Part shown: positions 1 to 62,977 of the stretch, piece after piece | Layout: every line of letters starts with the position of its first letter | Position numbering within the stretch: position 1 is the stretch's first letter | Assembly (NCBI GenBank): GCA_964016885.1 | Contig: OZ024745.1 | Location: 47,306,001-47,370,000 of the forward strand | Length of the DNA: 64,000 bases | Source: Eledone cirrhosa | Lineage: Eukaryota | Reading direction: 5' to 3' | The notes under the pieces: generated by a model | Told to the model about the DNA's origin: nothing | Databases searched by the model: none | What the model saw: only the letters and a program-made list of their open reading frames with translations | Program-made: the position numbers and the translations under genes

Positions 1-1478
<1,478 letters not shown>

Positions 1479-1479
<1 letters not shown>

Positions 1480-4400
1480 CGTACGGACGCTGCTTGACAG
1501 GGATTCTTTGGAGCGTCCTGAACGAAGGACCGCTCTTGTTGCGAAGGAGCTTCGACGTTACGATCTTGACATCGTGGCTTTGTCTGAGACGAGGTTAGCT
1601 GGAGATGGTCATCTTACGGAATTTTGTGGAGAATATACATTCTTCTGGAAAGGAAGAGATGAAGGAACCAGAAGAGAGGCTGGGGTAGGATTTGCTGTTA
1701 AGACTGTACTGGTGAATAAATTGGAAGAATTCCCAGTGGGGATTAGTGAGCGTCTTATGTCCATGAGAGTTCCGCTGGACAAGGGAAGATATGCTACTCT
1801 GGTGAGTGTGTATGCTCCAACTATGAATTCTGTCGATGAAGAAAAACTGTCCTTTTACCATGCCTTGAAAGGTGTTTTAAGAAATATCCCTCAGGCAGAC
1901 AAAGTCATCGTGCTTGGTGACTTTAATGCTAGAGTGGGTAGGGATTTTAACACATGGAATGTAATCGGAAGGCATGGGGTGGGAAAGTGTAACAGCAATG
2001 GTATGCTCTTGCTGCAGATGTGTGAGGAGCTGGATCTGTGTGTTACCAACACCATGTTCCAACAAAAGAACAAATTCAAGACCACATGGATGCATCCTGC
2101 ATCTAAGGAATGGCATCTTTTGGACTACGTCCTAGTCAGGATGCGTGACAGACAGGATGTGCGGTGTGTTCGTGTTCTTCGTGGAGCTGAGTGCTGGACG
2201 GACCACCGTCTGGTACGCGCAAAAGTGAATCTAATCACCAAACGTAAAATCCGGGCTCCTGGTGTTACCCTGCCCAAAAGATTGAATGCTGCTCGTCTTA
2301 AGGATAAAAATGTGAAGAGGACATTGGAAGAAGAGATGCAGGCTGCAGATCTTGGTGAGGATTGGCCGACCCTTAAAAAGTCGGTTTATGATGTAGGCAG
2401 ACGTGTTCTGGGATTGGTGCAGAGAAAACATCAGGACTGGTTTAATGAGAAAGATGTGCATATAGATGACTTGTTGGCTGATAAGAGGCGCGCTCTGTCA
2501 CGCTACTTGACGGCAAGACCACAGGAGAGGAATACGTTGCATGAGGAGCTCAGGGATGTAAAATCACGTGTTAGGCGGAGTCTTTCTCAGATGAAGGATC
2601 AGTGGTGGAGTGAGAAGGCTGGTGAGATACAAACTGCGTCTGATTGCAATAACACAAAGCTGTTGTACAGTCTCTTGCGTGAGGTTTATGGACCGTCTTC
2701 TTCTCTGGTGACACCGATTCGCAGCAAGGATGGCAAAGAACTTCTTCGTGACTCACAGGGAATTCTACGAAGGTGGCGGGAGCACTTTGATGATCTTTTG
2801 AATCAGCCGTCTGTCGTCAGTGAAGATTTCCTCAATCTCATTCCGGAAAGTCCTGTGAAAGTAGCTCTCGCAGAGCCTCCGACACTTGTGGAGGTTGCAG
2901 TGGCTATTTCGAAGCTGAACAGTGGAAGATCTCCAGGTATGGATGGCATACATGCTGAGCTCCTACAATATGGTGGTGAGAGACTCCTGCAACATCTTCA
3001 CTCTCTGTTTGGAAGGATATGGGCTAATGAATCCGTGCCTGAGGACTGGAGAGATGCAGTAATGGTGGTCTTGTACAAGGGAAGGGGTAACAGGAATGAT
3101 TGTGGGAACTACAGAGGTATATCATTGCTTTCTGTCGTGGGGAAAGTTTTATGTAGGGTGCTTCTGGACCGTCTGCTGACACACATTGCAGATTGTGTCC
3201 TTCCTGAAAGTCAATCTGGTTTTCGTGTTGGACGCGGCACTACTGATATGATCTTCTCAGCTAGACAGCTCCAGGAGAAGTGCATTGAACAGGGCTTGGA
3301 TCTGTATCAGGTTTTTGTCGATCTGACAAAGGCTTTCGATACTGTCAACAGAGATGCATTATGGAAGGTTCTCCAGAAACTTGGTTGCCCTGATAAGTTC
3401 CTTGCTTTAGTTAGGTCTTTCCATGACGACATGAAGGCTTGGGTTAATGTCGGAGGTAACATGTCGGAGCCTATCTCAGTAAAAAATGGAGTGAAACAGG
3501 GGGATATTCCAGCACCGACCCTGTTTGCCATATACTTTGCAATGGTTTTCTGTATTGCATTCAGGAATTGCGAGCATGGTGTTTACATCCGATATCGAAC
3601 CTCAGGCAGCATATTTAACATCAGGCGCTTTGCTGCGAAGACAAAAGTATTTACATCAGTCATAAGAGACCTCTTGTATGCAGATGATTGCGATCTTGTA
3701 GCGCACACAGAGAGTGATATGCAGCACATTTTGAATGTATTTTCTGACGCTTGCACTGCCCTGGGTTTGACTGTCAGTCTCAAGAAAACCGTCGTCATGT
3801 ACCAACCTGCACCTGGTAGGCAGTACACTGAACCAAACATCTATGTGTATGGCAAACGACTTGGAGTGGTTGATCAGTTTGTCTACCTGGGAAGCACTGT
3901 CAATCGATACGGCAACCTTGACAGTGAAATCTCACTTAGGATTAGGAAAGCAAGTGATGCTTTCGGAAAGCTAGAAAGGCGACTCTGGGGTCGGCGAGAC
4001 ATATGCAGGAGGACAAAGGTAAAGGTGTACAGGGCATGTGTACTCTCTTGTCTTCTTTATGCCTGCGAGACCTGGGTCACATATCGACGCCACCTTAAGC
4101 AATTGGAGCGTTTCCATCAGATGTGTCTCAGACGGATACATGGCGTTCGCTGGAGGGACCACATCAGTGATGTCGAGATTTTGGAAAGCTCTATGTGTGA
4201 CAGTATAGAAGCTCTTGTGCTTAAGCAGCGACTCCGTTGGAGTGGTCACCTTGCCAGGATGAAGGATTCTAGAATACCAAAACAACTCTTCTATGGAGAG
4301 TTGGTTAAAGGAAAACGACCGCCACATAAACCAAAAAAGAGGTATAAGGATTCCTTGAAGGCCTCTCTGAAAGACGCTAACATCTCTGCTGATACATGGG

Positions 4401-4866
4401 AAAATATTGCTGCTGATCGTAATAAATGGAGAAAGACTGTATATGAGGGAAAAGTTGCCTTTGAGGCATCTCGAATCGCACACGAGAAAGTAAAGCGGGA
4501 CGTGAGGAAGGGTATTGCTGTTGCACTTCCAGACGGCGAGGGTCCTCCTATGTTTCTGACATGCAGCGTCTGTGCGAGACTCTGCCTAAGCAAAGCTGGA
4601 CTCGAAAGTCATCTTCGCAGTCATAAAGTAAGACCAGTGGTTGACTACCAGGCTGCTGTTGGAGATGCTACTCATCATGCTTGCCAAACATGTGGTAGAG
4701 AATGTAAATCAGCAGGAGGACTCAAGCGACATGCAAAAGTACACGAACTCCAACCACAGCCGACTATTCCCAGTAAATGTTTTGGTTGCCGACTCTGTGC
4801 AAGACATTTTGGATCATTGGCTGGGCTAAAAAGCCACATTCGATCGCAGCACTGTTAGTTGCTATC

Positions 4867-5106: not shown

Positions 5107-5164
<58 letters not shown>

Positions 5165-5643
5165 ATATATATATATATATGTATGTATATATATATATAT
5201 ATATGTATGTATATATATATATATATATATATGCATATATATATATATATATGCATATATGTATATATATATATGCATATATATATATGTATGTATATAT
5301 ATATATATATATATGCATATATATATATATATATGCATATATGTATATATATATATGCATATATATATATGTATATATATATATATGCATATATATATAT
5401 GTATATATATATATGCATATATATATATGTATATATATATATGCATATATATATATGCATATATATATATGCATATATATATATATATGTATATATATGC
5501 ATATATATATATATATGCATATATATATATATATGCATATATATATATATATGCATATATATATATATATGCAAATATATATATATATGCATATATATAT
5601 GCATATATATATATGTATGTATTTGCATATATATATATATATG

Positions 5644-5733
<90 letters not shown>

Positions 5734-5960
5734 TATATATATATATATGCATATATATATATATATGCATATATATATATATAATGCATATATATATATA
5801 TGCATATATATATATGCATATATATATATGCATATATATATATATATATATGCATATATATATATGCATATATATGCATATATATGCATATATATGCATA
5901 TATATATATATGCATATATATATGCATATATATATATGCATATATATGCATATATATATA

Positions 5961-6000
<40 letters not shown>

Positions 6001-6329
6001 TATATATATATATATGCATATGCATATATATATATATATATATGCATATATATATATATATGCATATGCATATATATATATATATATATGCATATATATA
6101 TATATATATATGCATATATATATATATATGCATATATATATATATATATGCATATATATATATATATGCATATATATATATATATGCATATATATATATA
6201 TATATATGCATATATATATATATATATGCATATATATATATATATATATGCATATATATATATATGCATATATATATATATATATATGCATATATATATA
6301 TATATATATGCATATATATATATATATAT
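5107..6329. repeat. Interrupted (TA)n microsatellite
   Basis: Read directly. Confidence 0.98.
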
Positions 6330-6780
6330 GTAGATAAATCTACCAAGAGTTTACGGGTAGTGTCCAATCCGTATGAAGAACTCAATGTATTCCGGATATC
6401 ATGGAAAGAAGAGATGTAATGAAAAATCACTTTCGGTGAAAGATAAACGGTATATTCCTCTTTAATGTTTATTTATTATTTTTTATTTTTTTATTTTTTT
6501 ATTTTCTTAGTTTATAGATACATCTATATTAGGCAGTCTGCTCAGACCGTTGAATACTGACCTCTCCCCCCCCCCTCCCACCTAATTTCTGTATCTTGAT
6601 CTAAAAATGTGTGTGCCAGTGTTTTATGTGAGTGAATTAATATCCATGTGCTTATGATTTTATATCCACATATATAAATGTGAGTGGGGGTGTGTGTGTG
6701 TTTGTATGTTCGTGGTTATGTGTATATTTATGCATATACGCGCGTGTATGTGTGATTGTACGGATATGTGTGAGTATGAG

Positions 6781-6812
<32 letters not shown>

Positions 6813-7287
6813 TATTTATATACTTAATTTCATAAGTGTCAATACGCATCTTATCTGTGCATTATAAACTTACAGAGACATTAACCTTGAAATTTTGTAT
6901 TTGCATCCATCCTTTTAGTATGCGTATACAAATTATACATACATTTTTGTAAAATATGTGTAAGGGTTTTACATGTATATACACACACCGAACTGCATTT
7001 AACCCTTTGTGTTTTCATTGGTCAATTTTGTTCCCAAACGGACCTGAAATTTTGAATTGTTGTTATTATCAATAAATATACTTCATTATTTCTGAAGACG
7101 GCGTATATATGTGTTGGTATGTATATTTAATCTTGATAATTTGTATAATTTTGTATAATTTTGTACATAGATCTGTTGAATATGCATACCAATTCTAACA
7201 CATATATATCCTAGAAACGATCGTTAAATAATGAACTTTTTTTGTTTAATATAAGGAATTGTTTATTCATTATTTGTTTAATATTTT
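6328..7287 (+). mobile_element. 5'-truncated, ORF-less copy of the Penelope-like element: inverted ~127-bp tail (6328-6454) plus partial pseudo-LTR (~6465-7287)
   Basis: 6328-6454 matches 15520-15645. ~6465-7287 is the reverse complement, with many substitutions, of ~9016-9790. Both ends abut (TA)n. Confidence 0.88.
7082..7235 (+). ncRNA. Type I hammerhead ribozyme in the Penelope-like pseudo-LTR (copy 1)
   Basis: Stem I TTCATTATTT(7082-7091)/AAATAATGAA(7226-7235) is a perfect 10 bp. Core CTGAAGA is at 7092-7098, long stem II at 7099-7213, GAAA at 7214-7217, then the palindromic stem III CGATCG and a GUU cleavage triplet ending at 7225. Confidence 0.8.
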
Positions 7288-7617
7288 ATATATATATATA
7301 TGCATATATATATATATATATATGCATATATATATATATATATATGCATATATATATATATATATATGCATATATATATATATATGCATATATATATATA
7401 TATATATATATATGCATATATATATATATATATGCATATATATATATATATATGCATATATATATATAATATATATGCATATATATATATATATATGCAT
7501 ATATATATATATGCATATATATATGCATATATATATATATATGCATATATATATATATATGCATATATATATATATATGCATATATATATGCATATATAT
7601 ATATGTATATATATGCA

Positions 7618-7651
<34 letters not shown>

Positions 7652-7984
7652 TATATATATATATATGCATATATATATATATATGCATATATATTATATA
7701 TGCATATATATATATGCATATATATATATGCATATATATATATATATATGCATATATATATATGCATATATATGCATATATATGCATATATATGCATATA
7801 TATGCATATATATGCATATATATGCATATATATATATGCATATATATGCATATATATATATATGCATATATATATGCATATATATATATATGCATATATA
7901 TGCATATATATATATGCATATATATATATATATATCTATATATATATATATATATATATATGCATATATATATATATATGCATA

Positions 7985-8036
<52 letters not shown>

Positions 8037-8952
8037 TATATATATATATGCATATATATATATATGCATATATATATATATATGCATATATATATATATA
8101 TGCATATATATATATGCATATATATATATATATGCATATATATATATGCATATATATATATATATGCATATATATATATATGCATATATATATATATATG
8201 CATATATATATATATATATATGCATATATATATATATATGCATATATATATATATATATATGCATATATATATATATATATGCATATATATATATATATG
8301 CATATATATATATATATATCAATATATATATATATGCATATATATATATATATATGCATATATATATATATATATATGCATATATATATATATATATATG
8401 CATATATATATATATATATATGCATATATATATATATATATATGCATATATATATATATGCATATATATATATATATATATGCATATATATATATATATA
8501 TGCATATATATATATATATGCATATATATATATATATATATGCATATATATATATATATATGCATATATATATATATATATATGCATATATATATATATA
8601 TATGCATATATATATATATATATATGCATATATATATATATATATATGCATATATATATATATATATATGCATATATATGCATATATATATATATATATA
8701 TGCATATATATATATATATATATGCATATATATATATATATATATGCATATATATATATATATGCATATATATATATATATATATGCATATATATATATA
8801 TATATATGCATATATATATATATATATATGCATATATATATATATATATGCATATATATATATATATATATGCATATATATATATATATATATGCATATA
8901 TATATATATATGCATATATATATATATATATGCATATATATATATATATATA

Positions 8953-9015
<63 letters not shown>
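7288..9015. repeat. Interrupted (TA)n microsatellite, TGCA type, between the two Penelope-like 3' ends
   Basis: Read directly. Confidence 0.98.
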
Positions 9016-9022
<7 letters not shown>

Positions 9023-10043
9023 TAAACAAATAATGAACAAACAATTCCTTATATTAAACAAAAAAAGTTCACTATTTAACCATCGTTTCTAGGGTATATA
9101 TGTGTTATAATTGGTATGCATATTCAACAGATCTATGTACAAAATTATACAAAATTATACAAATTATCAAGATTAAATATACATACCTAACTCATATATA
9201 CGCCGTCTTCAGAAATAATGAAGTATATTTATTGATAATAACAACAATTCAAAATATCAGTTCAAAATTGACCAATGAAAACACAAAGGGTTTAAAAGCA
9301 GTTTGGTGTGTGTATATACATGTAAAAACCTTATACATATTTTACAATAATGTGTGTATAATTTGTATGTGCATACTAAAAAGATGGATGCAAACACAAA
9401 ATTTCAAGGTTAATATCTCTGTAAGCTTAATGCGCTGATAAGATGCGCAATGATACTTATGGAGTCAAGCATATAAATATATTTTTTTCATACTCACACA
9501 TATCAGTATAATCACACATACATGCGCGTATATGCATAAATATACACATAACCACGAACATACAAACACACACACTCCCCCACTCACATTTATATATGTG
9601 GATATAAAATCATAAGCAAATAGAAATTAAGTCACTCACATAAAATACTGGCACACACATTTCAAGATCAAGATACAGAAATTAGGTGGGAGGGGGGGGA
9701 GGGGGTCAGTATTAGATTGTCAGACCAGACTGCCTAATATAAATGTATCTATAAATTAAGAAAAATAAAAAAATAAAAACAATAAAATATAATAAATATA
9801 ATATAATGTACATACACATACAGATATACATACACATACATACATGTACGCGCACATAGAGATATTTACGCATACACACATACACACTACCTATACAGTC
9901 ATACACACACATACATTTACACGAACATACACATACACATATAAAAAGATATATATACACACACACACACACGCAACACATACACACTTACACATATATA
10001 TAAAATATAGATATAAGATATATATCCATATATATATATATAT

Positions 10044-10096
<53 letters not shown>

Positions 10097-10189
10097 TATA
10101 CACATACATACCCATACATCTAAATATACATACACATACATACACACATAATGTATATACATGTATACATGTACATATATAGCACATCG

Positions 10190-10233
<44 letters not shown>

Positions 10234-10585
10234 TATATACACTCACATAGACATAAAGATACATACACACACAACTTACATACACACGCATATACATATA
10301 TATATATATATATAGATGTACCTTCATACATAGAATTAGATATATAATCATACATACATATGCACCTACTTATACTCATATAAATAGAATACATACGCTT
10401 CCATATATGTGTATACATAAAAAACAATACCACCTCACCAAACCCAGACATACAAATGAAAATAATGAATAAATAGACGAATATGTATATACATATACAC
10501 ACACGCATTAATAGAGATATATATATATACACACATACATACAAACACATATATATACATACACACATACAATACATACATATAC

Positions 10586-10643
<58 letters not shown>

Positions 10644-10973
10644 TAGACTCATATATATATATACATATACATATATATATTATAAACATATATATCCACA
10701 CACTCATACCACCATAAATACACATACAAACACCCACATGTATATATATATATATATATATCCACATACACACACGTACACATATATATATATATATATA
10801 TACACATACAATATATATATATACACACACATAAAAAACAGACATGCACATATATATATATATATATATATTTCATTACTCTTATATATACACATAGTAT
10901 ATATACATACACAACCTCACTTATACACATATACACATAAGTTATATTACAATAATAATAAAGAATAATATAC

Positions 10974-11028
<55 letters not shown>

Positions 11029-11151
11029 TACATACATACACATACATACATACAGCATAAATATATACATACTTAAATACACACATACGAATAAAGACAT
11101 ATATTCACACATAGACACCTATATACATACATATATATATATATATATATC

Positions 11152-11202
<51 letters not shown>

Positions 11203-11912
11203 ACACACACACACACACACAGACACACATACACACTCACATATATATATATATATATGTGTATGTGAGTGTGCGCACATACACATATATACACATACAC
11301 ATACAAACACACACAAACACATACATATGCATACGTGCACACACACACACATATATCACATAGATACGAAGATAAACATATAAATAGAGAGACATACAAA
11401 TATATACACAACACATATACACATACATACAAACACGCATATACATATACATACATATATACACATATATATATTCCTATATACAAGCATACACATACAT
11501 ACACATATATACATATACATACACATATACATACCACACATTCACATACACATACATATATAATACATATATATACATATATATACATACATATGTATGT
11601 ACAATCATATATACACACTCAATCTTACATTCATATTTACATGCTCATATATGTATTTTTATATTTAGAAATAAATACCAAAACCTATATAGACACCCAC
11701 CTACATATATATTCATACATATACGCTTACAAATACAGATGATAATAGTATGGGGGAAAGGGGGGGTTTGGAGAAGGGGATCAAAGTAAATATATGTTTC
11801 AAGAAACATATAATATTTTCCGTATCTTAATTCAATGTATGTTCTTACATATTTTCAGTGCTAGGAAATACGAAATCTATGCATCTCAAAACAAAAAAGT
11901 ATACCATTAATC
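9016..11912 (-). repeat. 3' pseudo-LTR of the Penelope-like element (~2.9 kb, rich in TA/CA microsatellite)
   Basis: Near-identical direct repeat of 15658-18547; both run from AAAATATTAAACAAATAATG to AAAGTATACCATTAATC on the plus strand. Confidence 0.9.
9068..9222 (-). ncRNA. Hammerhead ribozyme copy 2 (stem III palindrome mutated to CGATGG)
   Basis: The minus strand reads TTCATTATTT-CTGAAGA-long stem II-GAAA-CGATGGTT-AAATAGTGAA. Confidence 0.7.
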
Positions 11913-12924
11913 ATATGTTAACTAAACCAAAGATAGTCAACATATTGATTTCTAAGGTGTAAATTAGTTAGGTTTATAATATTTGAAGCAGAATTATGAA
12001 GTCGAACAGTAGTAGATTATTAATTACATTATAACTAAATTAAAGTTAATAACGTTATGGTATCAATATTAGGAGATGAATTTAGTAATAGGGAAAAGAA
12101 ACCCAAATAAAAATAAAATAAAGTATTACATCGGTAGTAGCATATAAATTATATGTTAACTAAATTAAAAATTATATATTTATTTCAATAGTATACGTTA
12201 ATTAGTATATGTTAATTAGGTATACAATACATAAAGCAGATATTGTATTTCATCAATAGCATAATATAATTATATGCAAATAAAAATCAAAATTAATACG
12301 CATACATATACATATACATACACATACACATACATATACATATACACACATATATATATATATATACATATATATACACATATATACATATATACTCACA
12401 TAAACATACATACAGATACACATACACAACACACACATATACATATACATATACATATACATATCTTTTTCAAAAAATTGCACAGAATATATTAACTAGG
12501 TATATATCCAAAACACATCCCATTCTATGATTACATGACATTCTGCAATTCGTCTGTACAAGGATACTAATTTTAAGCAAATTAAAATTAAAATTTTAGT
12601 TTGATTAAAACTAAAACCAAATAATAAATATATTTCCAAAATGTATATTAATTAGGTCTATAATACTAAAAATTCTTTCTCCGTCATTGGATACATGATA
12701 TTATTTTGTTATATTTTATCTGTAAAAGAATTATAATAAAAAAAAGGTTTAAATAAATTAAAATTAATCTATAAATTAAATTACTGAGTATATATTAGTA
12801 ATATTTAAAGGTTTTTCAAAATTTATGATTACATAATATTTTCTCATCTGTAATAAAATATTAATTAAATTAAATTTATAGGTTAACTAACATTTAAATT
12901 AAATTAAATTCTAGAATAATGTTA

Positions 12925-15366
12925 TTAATTAGGTTTATAATATTTAAATGTTTTTTTTAGTTTATGATTACACGATATAATTAATTCCTGTCGTTTATTT
13001 AATAAGATATCCCTAGACTTCATTATTTCAAATAGTTCTTGGGAACATAATCTACATTCCTTTCTATTATTTTGATAAGGGGTGGCTCTTTTGAGCACAC
13101 TCCAGGTCAAATCATATTTTATATTTTTATTTTTATAACTATTGATTTTTTCTGCTAGAGATGTTGTATTAGCCAGTGCGGCATTTTTAAAGCTATGTTT
13201 GTGGGTATTATACCTTGTCTTAAAATTGTTAGAGGTAGCTCCTATATATGAGCAAATAGAATCTTTAGTTTTAACATTACATTTATAGACTATGTTGTTA
13301 ACAAGACAATTCCCTTTTAATGGGCAGTTTGTTTTGTTTCTACAGTTACATCCTTTCGTTAATTCTGTATTTGAGGAGATATTATTGTTAATTTGATGTA
13401 CTGGTGGTATACTTATGGTTTTCTTACATTTATATGCATTATATGCACTTATATTTTGTTTTATGTTATTTGTTGTAGAGTATGAGAATTTAACTGTAGA
13501 CCTATTTAAGATTTGATGGTATTTGTGGTTTGGCGGGAAGTTTTTCTCAAGGATATAAAAAAATTTTTTAGCAATATTATCCTTAACTTGTAAATTAAAA
13601 GGAGCATTATACCAAGTAACTCGTCTATTACGGTTTCTATGTTGTTTATTATTTTTATTATTTTTATATGTTGTATCATGATTTTTACTAGGAGGATTAA
13701 TGTTAATGATCTCACCACAACTATTTTTAGTTATATTTGTAGATTTAGGTGTTTTATCTTTTTTATTAGGAGTTTTATTATTAATATTTATTATAGTTGT
13801 ATGATGAGTAGTTTTTTGAGGGTTACTATACTTTATATTAGAAGATTTAGTATTTTGGGGTATATTGTGGGTGGCATTTAGGTGTGTACTTTTCATTTGG
13901 TGTTTGTTGGTAATATTATGCTGTATGCTTTCAGTATTTTTAGTAGAAGGTATATACTCTAATCTATTTTTGTGGCCACTTCTATCTAGAGCTTCATTAT
14001 AAAAGGTCGCATTTTTATCAAATACATCTTGGTTAGAAGAAAGGTTACAAATTCTAAGTGATATATTATATGCAAGGTTTTTAAGGATAGATTTAGGGTG
14101 ATTAGATTGTGAGTGTATGTAATGTAAGTTTTGGTTAGGTTTATGGTAAGGTTGGTATATACCCGTAGCTAAATCTAAAGTTATATCTAGGAAATTTACT
14201 ACTTTACTTGTTTTTTCAAAAGTAATATTAAGATTATAATAGTCTTTAAGGAAAGTTCTAATATGCTTTTTGTTTTTTTCGATTTCTGAAAGGCTAAGGT
14301 TGTTAGAAAGAAGAAGACAGTCATCACGATATAAACCACCTTTGAGGTGGGGAAAAGAGGCATTTATGTTGAAAAGGAGAAAGAGGCCCACAAGATCAGT
14401 AATTTGGGCGGAATCGCTTGAACCCATAGTAATATCAAAAAGATTACTGTATGTGTTTCTGGTCCAGTATTCATTCTGAAATTCAATAAGTGTTTGTCTA
14501 GCATGTGTAATAATGTTAATGTCATCCGAAGTTAAATTAGATCTATTTTTAGCAAATATTAATGCTTTGTTCAGGAGTATGGGTGATATAGAAGAATAGT
14601 AATTATCTATATCAAATTGTATGAAAGAAGCAGAAGATTTACACCTAATATTTTTAAACCAATTAATTACCTGGGAGGTGTTTTCCCAGAGTGGTAAAAT
14701 AACGTATTTTCTTATTTGTGGGATGACTCTATCTAAAATTTTTTTGCTAATTATTCCAATATCTGATTTGGAGGGACATATAAGTCTAATAGAAGGATTA
14801 GAGTTAAAGTTAGATTTGTGATCTTTCAGGTTGAAGTGTGATCTTTTCAATGCCAAAGGTTCAGTTCTATCTTCAATATTTAGTTTTTTTACTATGTTGT
14901 GTGTTTTGTTGTTGATGTTGGTGAGTGACACATTATTAGATTTTTTATAATTTTTTCTGAGTTCTTTATATATGAACTCATTATAATGTTCAATATCCAT
15001 ATGATACAAGTTACCAGTTTTGTCCGAGTGGACATGGATTTTTTTAGACTTTTTTAGGTCCAATAGGGTAGAATCAAGGTCCTTTTGAAAGACGGATTTA
15101 TACTTTTTAAATTTGAGGTGTTTAATTAAATTAAAAAGGTCTTTCTCGAAGTCTTCAAGTAAAAAGTTGTGTGGTGGATTCTTGTAAGTATTGAAATCAT
15201 ACATATATTTCCGATCTGCTTGTTTAGATTTTCTATCGAAGTGGTAGGCTCTCCATCTAACCCTTCTGATAAAATTATTAGTTTTCTGAATCATAAGGAG
15301 TAAGAAGTCGTCCTTAGAAGGTATTGGTATGTTTTTTAAGGAGGTTCCTAAATATTGTTTTTCCAT
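12925..15366 (-). CDS. Penelope-like polyprotein: reverse transcriptase plus C-terminal GIY-YIG endonuclease (likely ATG at 15366)
   Basis: N-terminal SLKNIPIP...RWRA; SDKTGN; RT motifs FDIDNYYSSI, ITMGS, GLYRDDCL, NFLDITL. Linker CNCRNKTNC (CxCx5C). Endonuclease IVY...SYIG...KTRYNTH...CRLC...LLNKRQE...CNH. No stops or frameshifts. Confidence 0.92.
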   Translation of the reverse strand: MEKQYLGTSLKNIPIPSKDDFLLLMIQKTNNFIRRVRWRAYHFDRKSKQADRKYMYDFNTYKNPPHNFLLEDFEKDLFNLIKHLKFKKYKSVFQKDLDSTLLDLKKSKKIHVHSDKTGNLYHMDIEHYNEFIYKELRKNYKKSNNVSLTNINNKTHNIVKKLNIEDRTEPLALKRSHFNLKDHKSNFNSNPSIRLICPSKSDIGIISKKILDRVIPQIRKYVILPLWENTSQVINWFKNIRCKSSASFIQFDIDNYYSSISPILLNKALIFAKNRSNLTSDDINIITHARQTLIEFQNEYWTRNTYSNLFDITMGSSDSAQITDLVGLFLLFNINASFPHLKGGLYRDDCLLLSNNLSLSEIEKNKKHIRTFLKDYYNLNITFEKTSKVVNFLDITLDLATGIYQPYHKPNQNLHYIHSQSNHPKSILKNLAYNISLRICNLSSNQDVFDKNATFYNEALDRSGHKNRLEYIPSTKNTESIQHNITNKHQMKSTHLNATHNIPQNTKSSNIKYSNPQKTTHHTTIININNKTPNKKDKTPKSTNITKNSCGEIININPPSKNHDTTYKNNKNNKQHRNRNRRVTWYNAPFNLQVKDNIAKKFFYILEKNFPPNHKYHQILNRSTVKFSYSTTNNIKQNISAYNAYKCKKTISIPPVHQINNNISSNTELTKGCNCRNKTNCPLKGNCLVNNIVYKCNVKTKDSICSYIGATSNNFKTRYNTHKHSFKNAALANTTSLAEKINSYKNKNIKYDLTWSVLKRATPYQNNRKECRLCSQELFEIMKSRDILLNKRQELIISCNHKLKKTFKYYKPN

Positions 15367-15519
15367 TGTGATATGGATGATGGACAATTGAAAGAGCTCA
15401 ACTAAATGTATATGGGTTTACAAAATCATACATATATATATGTTTATACATAAATATAAAATTAATACACACATACAGTACAAAAATACGAATATTTCCG
15501 TGAAAATAGGAGCAAAATT

Positions 15520-15657
15520 ATGTAGATAAATCTACCAAGAGTTTACGGTAGTGTCCAATCCGTATGAAGAACTCAATGTATTCCGGATATCATGGAAAGA
15601 AGAGATGTAATGAAAATCCACTTTCGGTGAAAGATAAACGGTATACAGAGTCAAGAT
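15520..15657 (-). other. Structured ~138-nt tail following the 5' pseudo-LTR; the source of the inverted termini at 6328-6454 and 18545-18696
   Basis: Three copies in the window; on the sense strand it ends in the hairpin GTAGA-TTTA-TCTAC. Confidence 0.85.
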
Positions 15658-16686
15658 AAAATATTAAACAAATAATGAACAAACAATTCCTTATATTACA
15701 CAAAAAAAGTTCACTATTTAACGATCGTTTCTAGGGTATATATGTGTTATAATTGGTATGCATATTCAACAGATCTATGTACAAAATTATACAAAATTAT
15801 ACAAATTATCAAGATTAAATATACATACCTAACTCATATATACGCCGTCTTCAGAAATAATGAAGTATATTTATTGATAATAACAACAATTCAAAATATC
15901 AGTTCAAAATTGACCAATGAAAACACAAAGGGTTAAAAGCAGTTTGGTGTGTGTATATACATGTAAAAACCTTATACATATTTTACAATAATGTGTGTAT
16001 AATTTGTATGTGCATACTAAAAAGATGGATGCAAACACAAAATTTCAAGGTTAATATCTCTGTAAGCTTAATGCGCTGATAAGATGCGCAATGATACTTA
16101 TGGAGTCAAGCATATAAATATATTTTTTTCATACTCACACATATCAGTATAATCACACATACATGCGCGTATATGCATAAATATACACATAACCACGAAC
16201 ATACAAACACACACACTCCCCCACTCACATTTATATATGTGGATATAAAATCATAAGCAAATAGAAATTAAGTCACTCACATAAAATACTGGCACACACA
16301 TTTCAAGATCAAGATACAGAAATTAGGTGGGAGGGGGGGGAGGGGTCAGTATTAGATTGTCAGACCAGACTGCCTAATATAAATGTATCTATAAATTAAG
16401 AAAAATAAAAAAATAAAAACAATAAAATATAATAAATATAATATAATGTACATACACATACAGATATACATACACATACATACATGTACGCGCACATAGA
16501 GATATTTACGCATACACACATACACACATACCTATACAGTCATACACACACATACATTTACACGAACATACACATACACATATAAAAAGATATATATACA
16601 CACACACACACACGCAACACATACACACATACACATATATATAAAAAATAGATAATAAAGATATATATCCATATATATATATATAT

Positions 16687-16741
<55 letters not shown>

Positions 16742-16830
16742 TATACACATACATACCCATACATCTAAATATACATACACATACATACACACATACATGT
16801 ATATACATGTACATACATATACGCACATCG

Positions 16831-16884
<54 letters not shown>

Positions 16885-17224
16885 TCACATAGACATAAAG
16901 ATACATACACACACAACTTACATACACACGCATATACATATATATATATATATATAGATGTACCTTCATACATAGAATTAGATATATAATCATACATACA
17001 TATGCACCTACTTATACTCATATAAATAAATACATACGCTTCCATATATGTGTATACACATAAAAAACAATACCACCTCACCAAACCCAGACATACAAAT
17101 GAAAATAATAATAAAAAAACGCATATGTATATACATACACACACGCATTAATAGAGATATATATATATACACACATACATACACACACATATATATACAT
17201 ACACATACACATACATACACATAC

Positions 17225-17281
<57 letters not shown>

Positions 17282-17609
17282 TAGACTCATATATATATAT
17301 ACATATACATATATATATATAAACATATATATCCACACACTCATACCACCATAAATACACATACAAACACCCACATGTATATATATATATATATATATCC
17401 ACATACACACACGTACACATATATATATATATATATATACACATACATATATATATATACACACACATAAAAAACAGACATGCACATATATATATATATA
17501 TATATATTTCATTACTCTTATATATACACATAGTATATATACATACACAACCTCACTTATACACATATACACATAAGTTATATTACAATAATAATAAAGA
17601 ATAATATAC

Positions 17610-17664
<55 letters not shown>

Positions 17665-17754
17665 TACATACATACACATACATACATACACATAAATATA
17701 TACATACATAAATACACACATACGAATAAAGACATATATTCACACATAGACACC

Positions 17755-17785
<31 letters not shown>

Positions 17786-17786
17786 C

Positions 17787-17837
<51 letters not shown>

Positions 17838-18547
17838 ACACACACACACACACACAGACACACATACACACTCACATATATATATATATATATGTGTATG
17901 TGAGTGTGCGCACATACACATATATACACATACACATACAAACACACACAAACACATACATATGCATACGTGCACACACACACACATATATCACATAGAT
18001 ACGAAGATAAACATATAAATAGAGAGACATACAAATATATACACAACACATATACACATACATACAAACACGCATATACATATACATACATATATACACA
18101 TATATATATTCCTATATACAAGCATACACATACATACACATATATACATATACATACACATATACATACCACACATTCACATACACATACATATATAATA
18201 CATATATATACATATATATACATACATATGTATGTACAATCATATATACACACTCAATCTTACATTCATATTTACATGCTCATATATGTATTTTTATATT
18301 TAGAAATAAATACCAAAACCTATATAGACACCCACCTACATATATATTCATACATATACGCTTACAAATACAGATGATAATAGTATGGGGGAAAGGGGGG
18401 GTTTGGAGAAGGGGATCAAAGTAAATATATGTTTCAAGAAACATATAATATTTTCCGTATCTTAATTCAATGTATGTTCTTACATATTTTCAGTGCTAGG
18501 AAATACGAAATCTATGCATCTCAAAACAAAAAAGTATACCATTAATC
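15658..18547 (-). repeat. 5' pseudo-LTR of the Penelope-like element
   Basis: Direct repeat of 9016-11912. Confidence 0.9.
15710..15864 (-). ncRNA. Hammerhead ribozyme copy 3
   Basis: The minus strand reads TTCATTATTT-CTGAAGA-stem II-GAAA-CGATCG-TT-AAATAGTGAA. The A>G change in stem I keeps pairing as G-U. Confidence 0.8.
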
Positions 18548-18696
18548 TTGACTCTGTATACCGTTTATCTTTCACCGTTTATCTTTCACCGAAAGTGGAT
18601 TTTCATTACATCTCTTCTTTCCATGATATCCGGAATACATTGAGTTCTTCATACGGATTGGACACTACCGTAAACTCTTGGTAGATTTATCTACAT

Positions 18697-22957
<4,261 letters not shown>

Positions 22958-29250: not shown

Positions 29251-30334
29251 TACATACATACATACATACATATCATCATCATCAATTTACGTCCGCTTTT
29301 CCCTGCTTGCAAGGGTGGAACAATATATATATATATAGATATATATAGTTATGTAATAAACAACATAAGATAATTATCTTATGTTGGACAATATATATAT
29401 ATATAGTTATGTAATAAACAACATAAGATAATTATCTTATGTTGTTTATTGTTTATTACATAACTAATAAGCTCTGTAGCCTACATAGAGCACTTTTTTT
29501 TCCTGTACCTTTCCGACGGAATTACTTCATATATATATTTATGAAATTAATTTATCCATAATATCAAGATGTAGTTTTACGTAGAACTTCATAATTTGCA
29601 AGGTTGGGATTGACTTAAGTATACTCTGGTAAATTAAATCTAACTTTAAAATACTTCTGAAGAAAGAGTAATATTTTTTTCCTTTTTTATTTAGATTTAT
29701 TTTCACTTATACAATTTACTCATAACAACCTATATGTAACTATTTGTATAATGCATAACATATTTCTCTTGAAACATGTGTAAAGCATTAAAATTGTTTT
29801 AGAACTATGATTCTATCTTTCTATTTGCTTATATATATATATAACAAATCTTATATAGAAATGGCTTCTACAGAACTAGAACTGTTTCATTCGAAGGAAT
29901 TCATTTATATTTATATATAAATAAAGAAACAAAAAATGAATAAACAAGAGGATGTAATAACATAAAGTCGTATAAGTTTCACGCTTGGAGGAAGAAGAGT
30001 AAGTTACATAAGCAATGTATCGGGCAATTACCCTTCATCAGGAAACACATAAGGAAAAGTGCAAAGAAAGTTTAAAATTAAAAAGTTTGTTTAAAGTATA
30101 ATTAGAAAGAAAAAAAAAAAAGAAAAAGGGAGAGGAGCAACTAGAAGGGTTGCTGTCAGAAAGGGCATATGGCAATAAAACATAGCCTCAAAAAATGCCA
30201 TCCAACCCATGCTAGCATGGAAAAGTTGTGACTGGTATCTATTATCAGCTGAGCAGACTTAGTAGTATGACATTATTGCAAAGTTTGAACTCCTGACATG
30301 TTCAGTAAGTCCAGATACTATAGCTGATTATAAT

Positions 30335-43800: not shown

Positions 43801-45720
43801 ATTATTTTTTCTTTCTTGCTCATAAGAAATATGGTTTTTAGCTTCTGTTCTTTTGTGATGTATAATTTCTTTAATCCCCAATTAATAACCAATTTCCTAA
43901 AAGTAAGAATTCATATTTTACTTCCTTGTTCTATTTCCTCTTATGATCAATTTAAAAATACTACTCACAATAACTTGGTTCAATCAAGTGTAATATTCTT
44001 TGTTAGATATGTATATAACATTGTATAAAATTGGACACCTGATTTACTTAATATGATTAGTTATTATTAGTTATGATTTCTCTTTTTTATAGTAGCTTTT
44101 GAATTAGTTTTTCTCTGTTTATACTTAAGTATTTTGTTGATAACATATTTCATCTAACACTTTTCTGAGTTACAATACTTGTGATACTGTGTGGAGCCTT
44201 ATAAGTATGTTTTTGTGAGAACTTTTGGTTAAGACCAGTAATGTATAGCAAATATACACATTTTCAACCTAATCATCATCATCATACGTCCGCTTTTCCC
44301 TGCTTGTAAGAGTAGGACGGGTCCTCTTCAGCATAGCATCTCTCCATTTGTCAGAGTCATTCTTCATCTCCTCTGTGAGCTTCAGTGATTTGAAGTCAGC
44401 TCTCACCACCTCTGCCCATGTTTTCCATGGTATTCCTCCACTATGTCTTCTTTTTACTGGGATTACTTGGCACTTCTTCACCTAGTGGTTAATATATTAT
44501 TAAACTTTATTGTATGTTTCCTTTTTCATATACATCAACATTTACATAGATACACACACACACAAATACACACACATATACAAACATATTCATAATTCCA
44601 CCAAAGTCAACTTTATCATTCATCTGTTTCAGATTGATAAATAAAGTAGCAGTCCATAACAATGGATTGGCAAAATTGTTAAAGCATCAAATATAATACT
44701 TTACAGTATCTTTTCCATGTCTTAGCATTCTGATGGTTATGCCTGCTTGGACACTAGCACCAAGTTTTATCAGCCCTTGCCTTTCTCGTGAACAACACAT
44801 GTATTTGTGTGTATATGTGTGTTTGTGTATATATGTACCTGAATATAAGCCAATTCTAATATAAGCTGATCCCCTATTTTATGTTTGAGAAATGGGCTAA
44901 AATCCAAACCCCTTGTATAAGCCGAAGTTGGTAATCAACACAATAAATTAGATGGTGTGGTTTTGAAATTCTTATGAGTGGAGAATATATTTATGAAGTT
45001 TTAATATTTTAAAATGTTTTAAGTATCATTTAGAGTATAATTTTTGTTTCACAACTCCATTATTTAATTTTTTTCTTTACCAATTTCTGATCATTTTGAA
45101 GGCTATATTCATTCAAAACAGAAAAAAAAAAACAATAGGAAAAACTAATTTCACTTTCAAAGTGAAACTGTTGTCATATTCTACTCAAAAGTGAAAATAT
45201 TTTAGCTCCTCATTTATGTAGAATTTGAAGTTGGTGAAAATTGGCAAAATATTAACCTTGAATATATATATATATATACACATACATATTAACTTTTCCT
45301 TTAACAACCAAAGAGGGTTGTTTGTTTCTGTCAGAGATCCTAAAGGAATGTGTTTGCGAATAAAACCTTGATTTTTCCAGAAAAGATTTTCAGTAATGGT
45401 AAGGCCTAGAACATATCGTGACCTTGAATGTTCCAAATGCATATTGTTTATATTGTAGACAGGAGAATATTACATTGTTTTCTTGATATGTGTAGTGTAT
45501 CCTTTTTGCTGTTGAAAGAGACAAAATTGGCATGACATCATTAAAAGATTTTTCTAGAAGGTTTTTATGAGGAAAAAATACTATTGATCATTGTGTAATA
45601 TTATTTTTCATTTGTGTATATCTAATTTTATATGAAATGTTTATTGTTCTAAATATAAAATATCATTTTACCTACTTAAATTTTATTGTTTCTTCATGAT
45701 TATTTATTTATATTTTTCAG

Positions 45721-47942
45721 TCGTTTGAACGTGTGGTGGTACAAAATATTCTCCATGGTTTATCACCAAGCTTGTGTGAAGCTATACACAGCGTGTCAAG
45801 GTGGAAGGTTATCCAGACAGCTTTTCCTCATGTGTTACATGCATGTGCTGCTCTTCTTGCAGAAAGAAAGCAAAGAGATGCTATTGCAAAGTTTACCAAC
45901 TGTGAGACAAAACTACTTTATACATTACATTGGATTCTATTAGATGCAGCATCTGAATGCGAAGACAATTGGGCAGAAATAAATCAGGGAGCTCCAAGTG
46001 GACGTTCTTATATGCATACACTTGGTACCATTCAACTTTTTGTGTACTTACTCGCACCATTAGTGCATACCTTATCTGAAACAGATTTTCAGAGTCTGAA
46101 ATTGGAGAATGGGTTGAGAATATGGCAGCCTTTGATAGATTACTGCCTCCCTGATGTTCCTTGTTTCTCATCCCTTGTCAAGCCTCAACGTAGCATCTTG
46201 AAAGCTCATCGTAGCAGTACAAAACATTATACTAATGCTGCCAACATATACATTGGAAAGGGTTGCTCTGAGCAGAATCTTTATCACGGTGTTGAACTTT
46301 GTATTGATGAGAAGGAAGACTCAAATGTTTTCATTGGTAATGAACCTACATCTCCATTAGCACCTCTTGCACATATGAGTGACATCTGTGCTTTGTCAAG
46401 CTCTGACAACCAGTCTGCCACTGTTGATGTTGTCTGTGAATATTGCAATTCTGTTGTGCCTGTTCGTTCAAGTAAAAATGGTACTTGTAAATGTCGAGGG
46501 AAAAACAGTACCATCAAGTTTTCTTTTGATTCAAAGCTATCCGTTTTGCCAAAGGTACCTGAAACTTCACCAGATAAAGATTACTTAAATCAGAAATTGA
46601 CAAGTGCTGATACTAGTTGTTCAAAGAGCTCTAGTTCTACATCTCCTGATGTTTTGTCTGCTTGTTATTTTGATATCGCAGTACTCAGGTGTTTATTTTG
46701 TCTACATTGGCCTGAAGATGGTATTTATTGGGCTTTAAGGTACATTCATCGTCGACTTTTAGAGATATTTGAGGAATATGTTCGAATGGGACATTCAGAA
46801 CGTGAACGAAGCAAGTCTTTACCAATTCCAAGTATTCAAGTTCTACAAATGTATTCTGCCATGCCCTATCCTTCTATGAATATGCAGGATTCTGCATATT
46901 CTCCCTGTACTCCACGGCGCAAGTCTTATACATCTAATCAAAATCTTTCATCCACAAATCTTTCACAAGTACCCACCACACATAAAGAACCTCCCCATAA
47001 ACGCATTAGAGTAATTGAATTGAAACAGTTGTTTGATTCTTCACGGACCAAAAAATACACTGCTGAACCAGAAGAAAATGAGTTACATTCTTTAAGATGC
47101 AGACGTACTGAGCCTTCAAATATTTCTCTCAAATCTCTCAAAGCAGATTCCTCTAGCTCCTGTACTTTATCAACATTAGATACGGATTCTGATTTTCCTC
47201 GGCCAAATTCAGCATTTGCCAATTACCTTGATGTTAAGAAAGATAATAAATCAGATGATATATTTTCTGATCCAGCCCGTCGTAAAAGTATGCCCTCTTT
47301 ACATCAGTCAGATAAGGATTCTCTTGCTGGGACAAATCAGTTAAGCAATCAGACCTCTCCCTGTTCTGGAAGGGTTGATTCAATGCCTGTAGGATTAAAT
47401 CTGAAGTCCAGCCAGCAGCAAGGTCAACGAGAACATCTCTTACATCCGATAATAACCATCACAGAACATAGTCCTTGTGACACATCTTTGGCAGTCCCAC
47501 CTCAATCACCTAACCCATCTGAGAGACAGCGGAGGGGCAGCAATGACTCTAGAAGAAATGTTCAAGAGTACAGCTCAGTGACAACACTGAACATCGCTCG
47601 CAGTATGACTGATTCTAATATTGCATATTCTACTGAAGATGACATCCAAGAAGCTTCAGGATCTGTCTATTACATCCAAGACAATGGTCAATTTAATTAT
47701 GTCATCATTCTAAAAGCAGTACATTTTGTGTCTATGAATGAGCATAGCCCAAAAATATGTGAAGTGTTGCTGAATATATTAAATTCCCTTCTAGATCTAA
47801 ATATCATAGATATGAAAAAGTCTGAGTCAGAATCTTCCAAATCATATCCTGGTGATGAAAATGCAAAAAAATCAGAAGAAAAGAAAGATACAAATAAAAA
47901 TGAAGAAACTACATATTGTATAGCAATGGACAGTATTGTCAG
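45721..47942 (+). CDS. unc-80: unc-80 large coding exon (UNC80 N-terminal domain)
   Basis: tttttcag|TCG starts SFERVVVQNILHGLSPSL..SRWKVIQTAFPHVLH..ETKLLYTLHWILLDA..IQLFVYLLAPL..RIWQPL..YFDIAVLRCLF..WALRY, hallmark UNC80 motifs. Donor AG|gtagga, phase 2. Confidence 0.93.
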
Positions 47943-48575
47943 GTAGGAATTTTAATCTTCTTTTTCCATTATTCTTTGTCTTTGTTGCCCACCTAAGTAC
48001 TTAGGTTCGACATTGCTTAACTTTGGTGATCAGATGAGAACTAATGTTTCCAATGTGATATAGCATATGGATTGGCAGAATTGTTAGAGTATTCGACAAA
48101 TGCTATATGGGATTTCTTCCAGTTCTTTGTGTTCTGAGTTCAAATCCTGCTTATATCAACTTTGCCTTTCATCCTACCAGAATCAATAAAATAAAGTACC
48201 AGTCAAATACTGGTGTTGATATAATCGACTTTCCTCTCTCCCAAATTGCTATCCTTTTGCTTAAATAAAATAATTAAAAAAAAAAATCTTATATCTAATA
48301 TGATAAGAATTTTTCAACTGCCCACTTCATGAAACACTGGCATAAGCTCTAATATATATATACCTGTACATAGTTGACAGCTAAGAGAAAAGAGTACTCA
48401 ATACCGAAGTAGAGTTTCAATATTCATTTTATGACGGCTAAATAATGAGTCTTGTTCTGGAGTTCACCTGCTTTTCATGTCAACATAACGTTAATCAATA
48501 ACAAAATCACATAAATACACACAAAGACAATGTAAAAAACATTTTATTTTGGAAATCAATTTTTATCTATTTCAG

Positions 48576-62066: not shown

Positions 62067-62977
62067 CTTGTGCCTAAACTGTTATTTCTAGCACATAACT
62101 GGTCTTGTGCCTAAAGTAGAAACTGTTATTTCTAGCACATAACTGGTCTTGTGCCTAAAGTAGAAACTGTTATTTCTAGCACATAACTGGTCTTGTGCCT
62201 AAAGTAGAAACTGTTATTTCTAGCACATAACTGGTCTTGTGCCTAAAGTAGAAACTGTTATTTCTAGCACATAACTGGTCTTGTGCCTAAAGTAGAAACT
62301 GTTATTTCTAGCACATAACTGGTCTTGTGCCTAAAGTAGAAACTGTTATTTCTAGCACATAACTGGTCTTGTGCCTAAAGTAGAAACTGTTATTTCTAGC
62401 ACATAACTGGTCTTGTGCCTAAAGTAGAAACTGTTATTTCTAGCACATAACTGGTCTTGTGCCTAAAGTAGAAACTGTTATTTCTAGCACATAACTGGTC
62501 TTGTGCCTAAAGTAGAAACTGTTATTTCTAGCACATAACTGGTCTTGTGCCTAAAGTAGAAACTGTTATTTCTAGCACATAACTGGTCTTGTGCCTAAAG
62601 TAGAAACTGTTATTTCTAGCACATAACTGGTCTTGTGCCTAAAGTAGAAACTGTTATTTCTAGCACATAACTGGTCTTGTGCCTAAAGTAGAAACTGTTA
62701 TTTCTAGCACATAACTGGTCTTGTGCCTAAAGTAGAAACTGTTATTTCTAGCACATAACTGGTCTTGTGCCTAAAGTAGAAACTGTTATTTCTAGCACAT
62801 AACTGGTCTTGTGCCTAAAGTAGAAACTGTTATTTCTAGCACATAACTGGTCTTGTGCCTAAAGTAGAAACTGTTATTTCTAGCACATAACTGGTCTTGT
62901 GCCTAAAGTAGAAACTGTTATTTCTAGCACATAACTGGTCTTGTGCCTAAAGTAGAATCTGTTATTTCTAGCACATA
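62067..62977 (+). repeat. 44-bp minisatellite, about 20 near-identical units, derived from the SINE family A 3' end
   Basis: Unit CTGTTATTTCTAGCACATAACTGGTCTTGTGCCTAAAGTAGAAA; period 44 (GGTCTT at 62101 and 62145). Confidence 0.97.

What the first reader, a model, noticed from the sequence alone, without database searches (positions are those of the whole stretch)
6328..18696. Two independent Penelope-like insertions share the same two fixed ends: a candidate fixed-site twin-priming mechanism
Seen: in the full element the sense strand reads pLTR...TTTAATATTTT|ATCTTGACTC...(138 nt)...GTAGATTTATCTACAT (15657 to 15520). Both insertions end on one side exactly at AATATTTT|AT(AT)n (9016 and 7287). 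On the other side both end with an inverted copy of just that tail, finishing at ATCTAC|AT(AT)n (18696 and 6328). The inverted piece starts exactly at the first end point in the full copy (18545, ATC microhomology) and about 12 nt short of it in the diverged copy. Known: PLEs often have inverted 5' segments and short 3' tails, and L1 twin priming uses a variable internal site. Inference: the two nicked (TA)n strands prime at two fixed AU sites 138 nt apart on one RNA, and the two cDNAs are then joined.
Basis: partly seen in the sequence, partly recalled or inferred. Interest (0 to 1): 0.8.

Follow-up and report, generated by a model that had tools for sequence, protein, structure and literature searches.

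The report
Two-site priming of Penelope-like insertions
Copies of this Penelope-like jumping gene sit in TA repeats, mostly as two arms joined head to head, one ending at a fixed site A and the other at a fixed site B 138 bases away, which likely means both cut ends of the target DNA start copying the element's RNA at two set places; the two fixed ends are a known feature of such elements, but the strict one-A-one-B rule makes the mechanism directly testable.

Summary
The window carries two independent insertions of an active Penelope-like element with Hydra-clade motifs (813-aa RT plus GIY-YIG protein; 4,080 exact B ends in the genome). Of 100 consecutive B-ended copies, 74 have an inverted arm ending exactly at A; 0 of 75 resolved pairs are B/B and 0 of 34 are A/A. 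The two arms come from one source haplotype (27 of 37 identical; 11 of 11 long arms best match their own partner). Imperfect targets show a duplication of about 14 bp (7 fit at 14-16, 5 do not). Two further families in the genome follow the same rule with 65-78 nt tails. The strict A+B pairing and head-to-head joining model was not found in the papers searched. One RNA versus two remains inferred.

The parts
9016..18696 (-). Copy 1: partial-tandem Penelope-like insertion (long arm ending at A, inverted short arm ending at B)
12925..15366 (-). Intact ORF, 813 aa: RT, Asn/Lys/Thr-rich linker, CxCX5C motif, C-terminal GIY-YIG endonuclease; Hydra-clade motifs
   Evidence: no Pfam hit
15520..15657 (-). 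138-nt tail between site A (15657/15658) and site B (15522/15521), in the 5' UTR
15658..18547 (-). 5' pLTR copy (truncated upstream unit, 2.9 kb, microsatellite-rich)
   Evidence: 98.6% identical to 9016-11912
9016..11912 (-). 3' pLTR copy; site A terminus at 9016 against (AT)n
18545..18696 (+). Inverted tail (+1 to +138) with a 14-bp internal tandem duplication; site B terminus; ATC microhomology at the inner junction
15712..15862 (-). Type I hammerhead-like motif (core CUGAAGA / GAAAC, palindromic 4-nt loop III, about 110-nt helix II); second copy at 9070-9220; cleavage untested
   Evidence: z = -4.8; no Rfam match
15861..15861 (-). Position -204: commonest inner end of both arms genome-wide; likely transcription start (A of TCATT, initiator-like; motif recalled)
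6455..7287 (+). Copy 2, arm ending at site A (7287); different subfamily
6328..6454 (-). Copy 2, inverted tail (+13 to +138) ending at site B
7288..9015 (.). (AT)n-based target array between the two copies; further arrays 5107-6327 and 18697-22957

Best explanation
Two-armed insertions end at site A on one side and site B on the other, likely because the element's protein cuts a TA repeat on both strands about 14 bases apart and each freed 3' end then primes reverse transcription at its own fixed site on what is probably one RNA. Shown by sequence: fixed ends with 2-3 nt AT(A) microhomology, one A and one B per two-armed insertion, about 14-bp duplication where the target is imperfect, same-source arms, variable inner ends with a peak at -204. 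Inferred: a protein dimer holds the RNA by the structured tail; both RTs run towards the RNA 5' end, the B-primed one usually passing A by displacing the other cDNA; they stop at random or run off the capped 5' end; the two cDNA 3' ends are joined through 0-7 nt microhomology or filler and each templates the other's second strand, giving a head-to-head insertion. If one arm fails, a single-armed copy results. The window's two copies are the minority case in which the B arm stopped inside the tail.
For: Pairing: 74 of 100 B-ended copies have an inverted A end, 0 of 75 resolved are B/B; 34 of 44 A ends have a B partner, 0 A/A (largely the same insertions). Same source: 27 of 37 arm pairs identical against 3.5% of non-own pairs, 27 haplotypes, summed distance 23 against a minimum of 191 in 20,000 permutations; 11 of 11 long arms best match their own partner. 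Duplication: 14 bp in 6 loci, 16 in 1, 14 in one family-2 locus. Independent priming: 13 copies have non-overlapping arms and both single-arm types exist. Sense, capped template: 1,567 arms start at -204 without the templated base before it; 15 of 43 unexplained junction bases are G (p about 0.001 at an assumed 15% background, 0.016 at 20%). Both arms stop at the same odd position in L101, L125, L140. Weak road-block at A: 37 against 7 at a control site. Families 2 and 3: 15 of 29 and 5 of 30 show an inverted A end within 1.5 kb, none a head-to-head B end. Published in vitro: both strands cut and extended, two internal RT starts bounding the tail (PMC11167929).
Against: 80 of 100 B arms cross A, so one RNA needs strand displacement, which is untested for this RT. 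5 informative loci do not fit a 14-bp duplication (L127, L330, L352, L353, L355; three allow 12-13 bp). 21 of 100 B copies and 10 of 44 A copies show no partner; 4 are unresolved and 1 inverted arm ends at -35. In vitro the lizard enzyme showed no difference in start site between strands (PMC11167929). Arm identity could also come from two RNAs of one active source or from later conversion; 2 of 37 pairs differ by 6-7 events. The road-block excess falls to 15 against 4 without one subfamily variant. No RNA data and no dimer evidence for this protein.
Confidence: 0.6

Rival explanations
1. Both target ends prime at A and B as above, but on two RNA molecules from the same source element, held in an asymmetric complex or used one after the other.
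For: Overlapping arms need no displacement (80 of 100); either arm can run further in long copies; one active source per cell would give matching haplotypes.
Against: Two equal RNAs would be expected to give some A/A or B/B copies: 0 of 75 and 0 of 34; no subfamily chimera seen among 37 pairs; arms tied at odd positions (L101, L125, L140); excess of B arms stopping at A.
Confidence: 0.25
2. A head-to-head DNA intermediate forms first by fold-back or self-priming (on an antisense RNA, as proposed in PMC3846280) and the endonuclease then resolves it at A and B (as suggested for the tail in PMC8557442) before joining to the target.
For: Near-perfect palindromic junctions are the commonest form; short palindromes precede both A and B; it is the published suggestion.
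Against: Copies with no overlap or very unequal arms cannot be fold-backs (both window copies; 13 of 100); single-arm copies of both types; extra G at the sense 5' end; in vitro the tail ends are RT starts (PMC11167929).
Confidence: 0.1
3. Only B is a priming site; the A arm arises later by repair, conversion or rearrangement.
For: 21 of 100 B copies are single-armed; B ends outnumber exact A ends 2:1, although the A pattern misses subfamily variants.
Against: A ends are nucleotide-exact against (AT)n, occur without any B arm, and often carry sequence the B arm lacks (copy 1: 9.5 kb against 138 nt).
Confidence: 0.05

Closest known systems
PAc, Poseidon-clade PLE of the green anole (Frangieh et al. 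2024, PMC11167929; read: parts 1-2 of 4, term search of 3 supplement texts)
   Same: Two internal RT start sites that bound the genomic tail; both target strands cut and extended; AT-rich target; hammerhead upstream; dimer predicted there.
   Different: Tail 30-40 nt there, 138 nt here (65-78 in families 2 and 3); sites lie in the ORF there, in the 5' UTR here; no strand difference in start site seen there, strict A+B pairing here; later steps left open there.
Hydra clade of C-terminal EN+ PLEs (Craig et al. 2021, PMC8557442; read: passages)
   Same: DKT, CxCX5C linker, no CCHH, CxxC and CxH around E and N, (TA)n targets; partial tandems, adjacent inverted 5'-truncated copy, tail at either end.
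   Different: Unit 6.6 kb rather than under 3 kb; RWR for RWK; hammerhead with a very long helix II; tail far longer than 30-40 bp; the paper ascribes the tail to endonuclease resolution.
Adineta vaga Pen2a-type insertions (Arkhipova et al. 2013, PMC3846280; read: passages)
   Same: [quoted passage not shown]
   Different: Explained there by self-priming on an antisense template; the copies here point to sense RNA and two target primers; TSD about 14 bp.
L1 twin priming (Ostertag and Kazazian 2001; not held, seen only as a reference entry in PMC3649969; features recalled)
   Same: Both target ends prime on element RNA and two cDNAs are joined head to head by microhomology.
   Different: In L1 the first primer uses the poly(A) end, the second site varies, inversion is a minority outcome and the segments barely overlap; here both sites are fixed and internal, two arms are the majority, and they usually overlap.
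[quoted passage not shown]
   Same: Type I topology, short helix III with palindromic loop, in the pLTR.
   Different: Helix II about 110 nt; predicted cleavage triplet GUU; few arms start at the predicted cut site.

Membership tests
Endonuclease-bearing Penelope-like elements | Single ORF with RT and C-terminal GIY-YIG endonuclease | tested here: met
   (YRDD, VY...YIG motifs aligned with 14 homologues); Pfam and PDB gave no hit
Endonuclease-bearing Penelope-like elements | Partial tandem giving pLTRs, adjacent inverted 5'-truncated copy, tail at one end | tested here: met
Endonuclease-bearing Penelope-like elements | Tail of 30-40 bp | tested here: not met
   138 nt here; 65-66 and 78 nt in families 2 and 3. 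A typical length, not a strict criterion
Hydra clade | DKT, CxCX5C linker, CxxC and CxH flanking E and N | tested here: met
   against the description in PMC8557442
Hydra clade | N-terminal RWK motif | tested here: inconclusive
   RWR in this protein, RWK in most homologues
Hydra clade | No CCHH motif in the endonuclease | tested here: met
   two Cys inside the core are 8 residues apart and not conserved in homologues
Hydra clade | Insertion into (TA)n | tested here: met
Hydra clade | Canonical hammerhead present | tested here: inconclusive
   core and helices present but long helix II, no Rfam match, cleavage untested
Hydra clade | Generally under 3 kb | tested here: not met
   unit 6,642 bp, owing to a long microsatellite-rich 3' UTR; a typical size, not a strict criterion
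Hydra clade | Groups with reference Hydra RTs in a tree | not tested
   no named reference sequences were in hand
L1-type twin priming (features recalled) | Both ends of a staggered target cut act as primers | tested here: inconclusive
   7 loci fit a 14-16 bp duplication, 5 do not; both ends are element 3'-type ends; priming itself inferred
L1-type twin priming (features recalled) | First primer at the poly(A) end, second at a variable internal site | tested here: not met
   both sites fixed and internal
L1-type twin priming (features recalled) | Inverted and direct segments essentially non-overlapping | tested here: not met
   80 of 100 B arms cross A (one locus re-binned by eye)
L1-type twin priming (features recalled) | Both cDNAs from one RNA molecule | not testable with these tools
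   same source shown; same molecule inferred

The most novel reading that the evidence does not exclude
Obligate asymmetric twin priming is the normal integration route of these elements: one dimer cuts (TA)n with a 14-nt stagger, the tail is the RNA spacer that feeds site A to one RT and site B to the other, and both RTs copy the same RNA in convoy. This one mechanism would explain the tail, the head-to-head inversions, the pLTR length (A back to the transcription start) and second-strand synthesis in Penelope-like elements generally.
Probability: 0.5. Interest if true: 0.72.

Novelty: new variant of a known kind. Interest (0 to 1): 0.5.

Why it matters
How Penelope-like elements form their tandem and inverted insertions is named as open in PMC8557442 and left open in PMC11167929; the published suggestions are antisense self-priming or endonuclease resolution. 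The long tail of this family separates the two start sites enough to score each end in every copy, giving a strict one-A-one-B rule, a 14-nt stagger and a 5' run-off point. These are sharp predictions for the in vitro system that already exists. The architecture itself is known and seems common, which caps the novelty.

Tried and rejected
Local duplication of one copy: rejected. Tail-only inversion as the rule: rejected. Hammerhead cut as the main 5' stop: rejected, the peak is at the 5' edge of helix I, about 137 nt upstream of the predicted cut; 2 of 43 short copies start near the cut. Splice acceptor at -204: no AG precedes it. Pfam, Rfam and PDB sequence searches: no informative hit. Tail structure: only weakly better than shuffles (z -1.75, -2.08, -1.23) and a three-family DNA alignment was uninformative, so a structural spacer is a guess. 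Dimer prediction: tool not available; no result. Earlier findings: nothing by sequence or by the first word set. Ostertag and Kazazian 2001 not held. First automatic parse dropped arms in low-complexity sequence and was redone by windows; mis-assigned L149 and L161, read instead.
Full report
Observation. I number from site A: tail +1 to +138 (window 15657 to 15520), upstream negative. Copy 1 is a 9.5-kb arm ending at A (9016) joined through ATC microhomology to an inverted tail +1 to +138 ending at B (18694-18696); the inverted tail also holds a 14-bp duplication. Copy 2 is an 833-bp arm ending at A (7287) joined bluntly to an inverted tail +13 to +138. Copy 2 belongs to another subfamily (88.5% identity; junction sequence templated in that subfamily), so the insertions are independent.

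The element. The ORF (12925-15366, 813 aa from the ATG) has no Pfam or PDB match but 120 homologues at E <= 1e-20. The alignment shows RT motifs, DKT, a CxCX5C linker, a GIY-YIG core without CCHH, and CxxC and CxH around E and N, which are the Hydra-clade marks described in PMC8557442 (passages). No tree with named references was made. A type I hammerhead-like fold with a very long helix II lies at -204 to -55 (z -4.8; no Rfam match).

Ends across the genome. Exact patterns give 2,609 mid-tail words, 1,953 A ends and 4,080 B ends, controls 0. Of the first 30 mid-tail copies, 24 end exactly at B, 1 just beyond, 5 read through. I fetched 10 kb inward of the first 100 of the 4,080 B ends, all on contig C1. 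Result: 65 have an inverted A end against (AT)n within the stretch, 7 more by coordinates, 2 by extension: 74 of 100. One inverted arm ends at -35, 4 are unresolved or nested, 21 show no inverted arm. None of 75 resolved partners is a B end. Of 44 A ends in the same interval, 34 have a B partner, 10 have none, none pairs with another A; most of the 34 are among the 74. Free choice of site would give half same-type partners.

80 of 100 B arms cross A: 13 stop between A and -204, 26 at about -204, 41 go further; 20 stop within the tail or at A, spread from +1 to +116, 13 of them two-armed and only L163 at A (L190 re-binned by eye). Genome-wide, arms starting exactly at +1 number 10 and 27 in two patterns against 3 and 4 at a control position with the same ATCTT context; the excess shrinks to 15 against 4 without one subfamily variant. 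So a road-block at A is weak and concerns about 1% of copies. The window shows a minority form twice.

The third fixed point. 1,567 arms begin at ATTATTTCTGAAGA (-204) without the templated C before it (first 100 rows A 46, G 31, T 23). The A lies in TCATT, an initiator-like word (recalled). In 63 junctions inspected, 20 preceding bases are explained by the partner arm or (AT)n; of the other 43, 17 are G, 2 of them ambiguous. An extra G fits copying of a cap (recalled from L1), p about 0.001-0.016 depending on the assumed background. This is suggestive only; no RNA run was listed.

Source of the arms. Over the shared 200 nt, 27 of 37 arm pairs are identical against 3.5% of non-own pairs; 27 haplotypes are present; 9 private variants are shared by both arms of one locus; 2 pairs differ by 6-7 events. 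For 11 long copies chosen, each A arm best matches its own B arm. This shows one source, not one molecule.

Target duplication. In imperfect repeats the flanks match at 14 bp in L049, L118, L138, L140, L154, L224 and 16 bp in L152; L127, L330, L352, L353, L355 do not fit (three allow 12-13 bp); all other flanks are pure (AT)n and say nothing. A duplication with both element ends facing outward implies two 3' overhangs, each a primer (inference).

Generality. A homologue search found two more families. Among the first 30 mid-tail copies each: family 2, 29 end at its B region and 15 show an inverted A end within 1.5 kb (two are duplicates of one locus), one with a 14-bp duplication; family 3, 30 end at B and 5 show an inverted A end; the rest extend beyond the 1.5 kb held or are single-armed; no head-to-head B/B. 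Tails are 65-66 and 78 nt.

Mechanism. Best reading (0.6): staggered double nick, two target primers, fixed sites A and B on one RNA, the B-primed RT displacing the A cDNA, run-off or stalling, microhomology joining of the two cDNA ends. Two RNAs of one source (0.25) avoids displacement but does not readily explain the absence of A/A and B/B. Fold-back plus endonuclease resolution (0.1) fails on non-overlapping and single arms. Dimer, displacement and cap copying are inferred; the dimer could not be modelled.

What is known. PMC11167929 (parts 1-2 of 4 read; supplement texts searched without hits, figures and one file not visible) shows for a lizard element two internal RT starts bounding the tail and cutting and extension of both strands, with no strand difference, and leaves later steps open. 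PMC8557442 (passages) and PMC3846280 (passages) describe the inverted copy and the one-sided tail and suggest endonuclease resolution or antisense self-priming. PMC4209133 (passages) covers the hammerheads; bioRxiv 10.64898/2026.07.22.740005 (part 1 of 5) added nothing on mechanism. Searches found no paper stating the one-A-one-B twin-priming model, but the library lacks most subscription papers, including the early Penelope work. Unchecked notes on other genomes report the same asymmetric two-armed form with 12-15 bp duplications and stops just upstream of the hammerhead; they are leads only and suggest that the architecture is general, which lowers its novelty.

Verdict. Real, and larger than the two copies: a variant (long tail, Hydra-like family) of a known architecture, with genome statistics that turn an open mechanistic question into a direct test. 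Interest 0.5.

Noticed in passing
window 29406-29529 (partial repeat at 29348-29386): A third two-armed insertion, of family 2: inverted A arm, palindromic junction, direct arm ending at its B site, in (AT)n.
   Followed up: partly
L251, L273 (family 2); L264, L280 (family 3): Two more PLE families, 714-719 aa, 40-42% identical to the window protein over the RT half, each with a hammerhead-like motif and a similar hairpin just after site A; 3,511 and 363 exact mid-tail matches.
   Followed up: yes
L286, L288, L293, L294, L307: Family 2 B ends vary over about 6 nt and are often followed by (CA)n before the (AT)n, as if the RT slipped repeatedly at initiation.
   Followed up: no
L093, L187, L201, L205: Short junction units repeated 2-8 times at the inner joint, suggesting repeated template re-alignment during joining.
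   Followed up: no
window 18560-18587: 14-bp tandem duplication in the inverted tail of copy 1, the same length as the target duplication; single case.
   Followed up: no
window 764-4858: Long open frame with AP endonuclease, RT and C2H2 fingers (RTE-like LINE by my reading), also flanked by (AT)n.
   Followed up: no
G000:C1:126844020-126863890; C2:170426257-170438841: Head-to-tail arrays of 3-4 units at about 6.0-6.9 kb spacing; how multi-unit tandems arise is not explained here.
   Followed up: no
L293, L294: Family 2 arms starting at the predicted hammerhead cut site, so some templates may be self-cleaved RNA.
   Followed up: no
window 62076-62977: 20.5 copies of a 44-bp tandem repeat at 99% identity.
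   Followed up: no
window 45700-47946: 748-aa open frame that looks like a large host exon; not identified.
   Followed up: no
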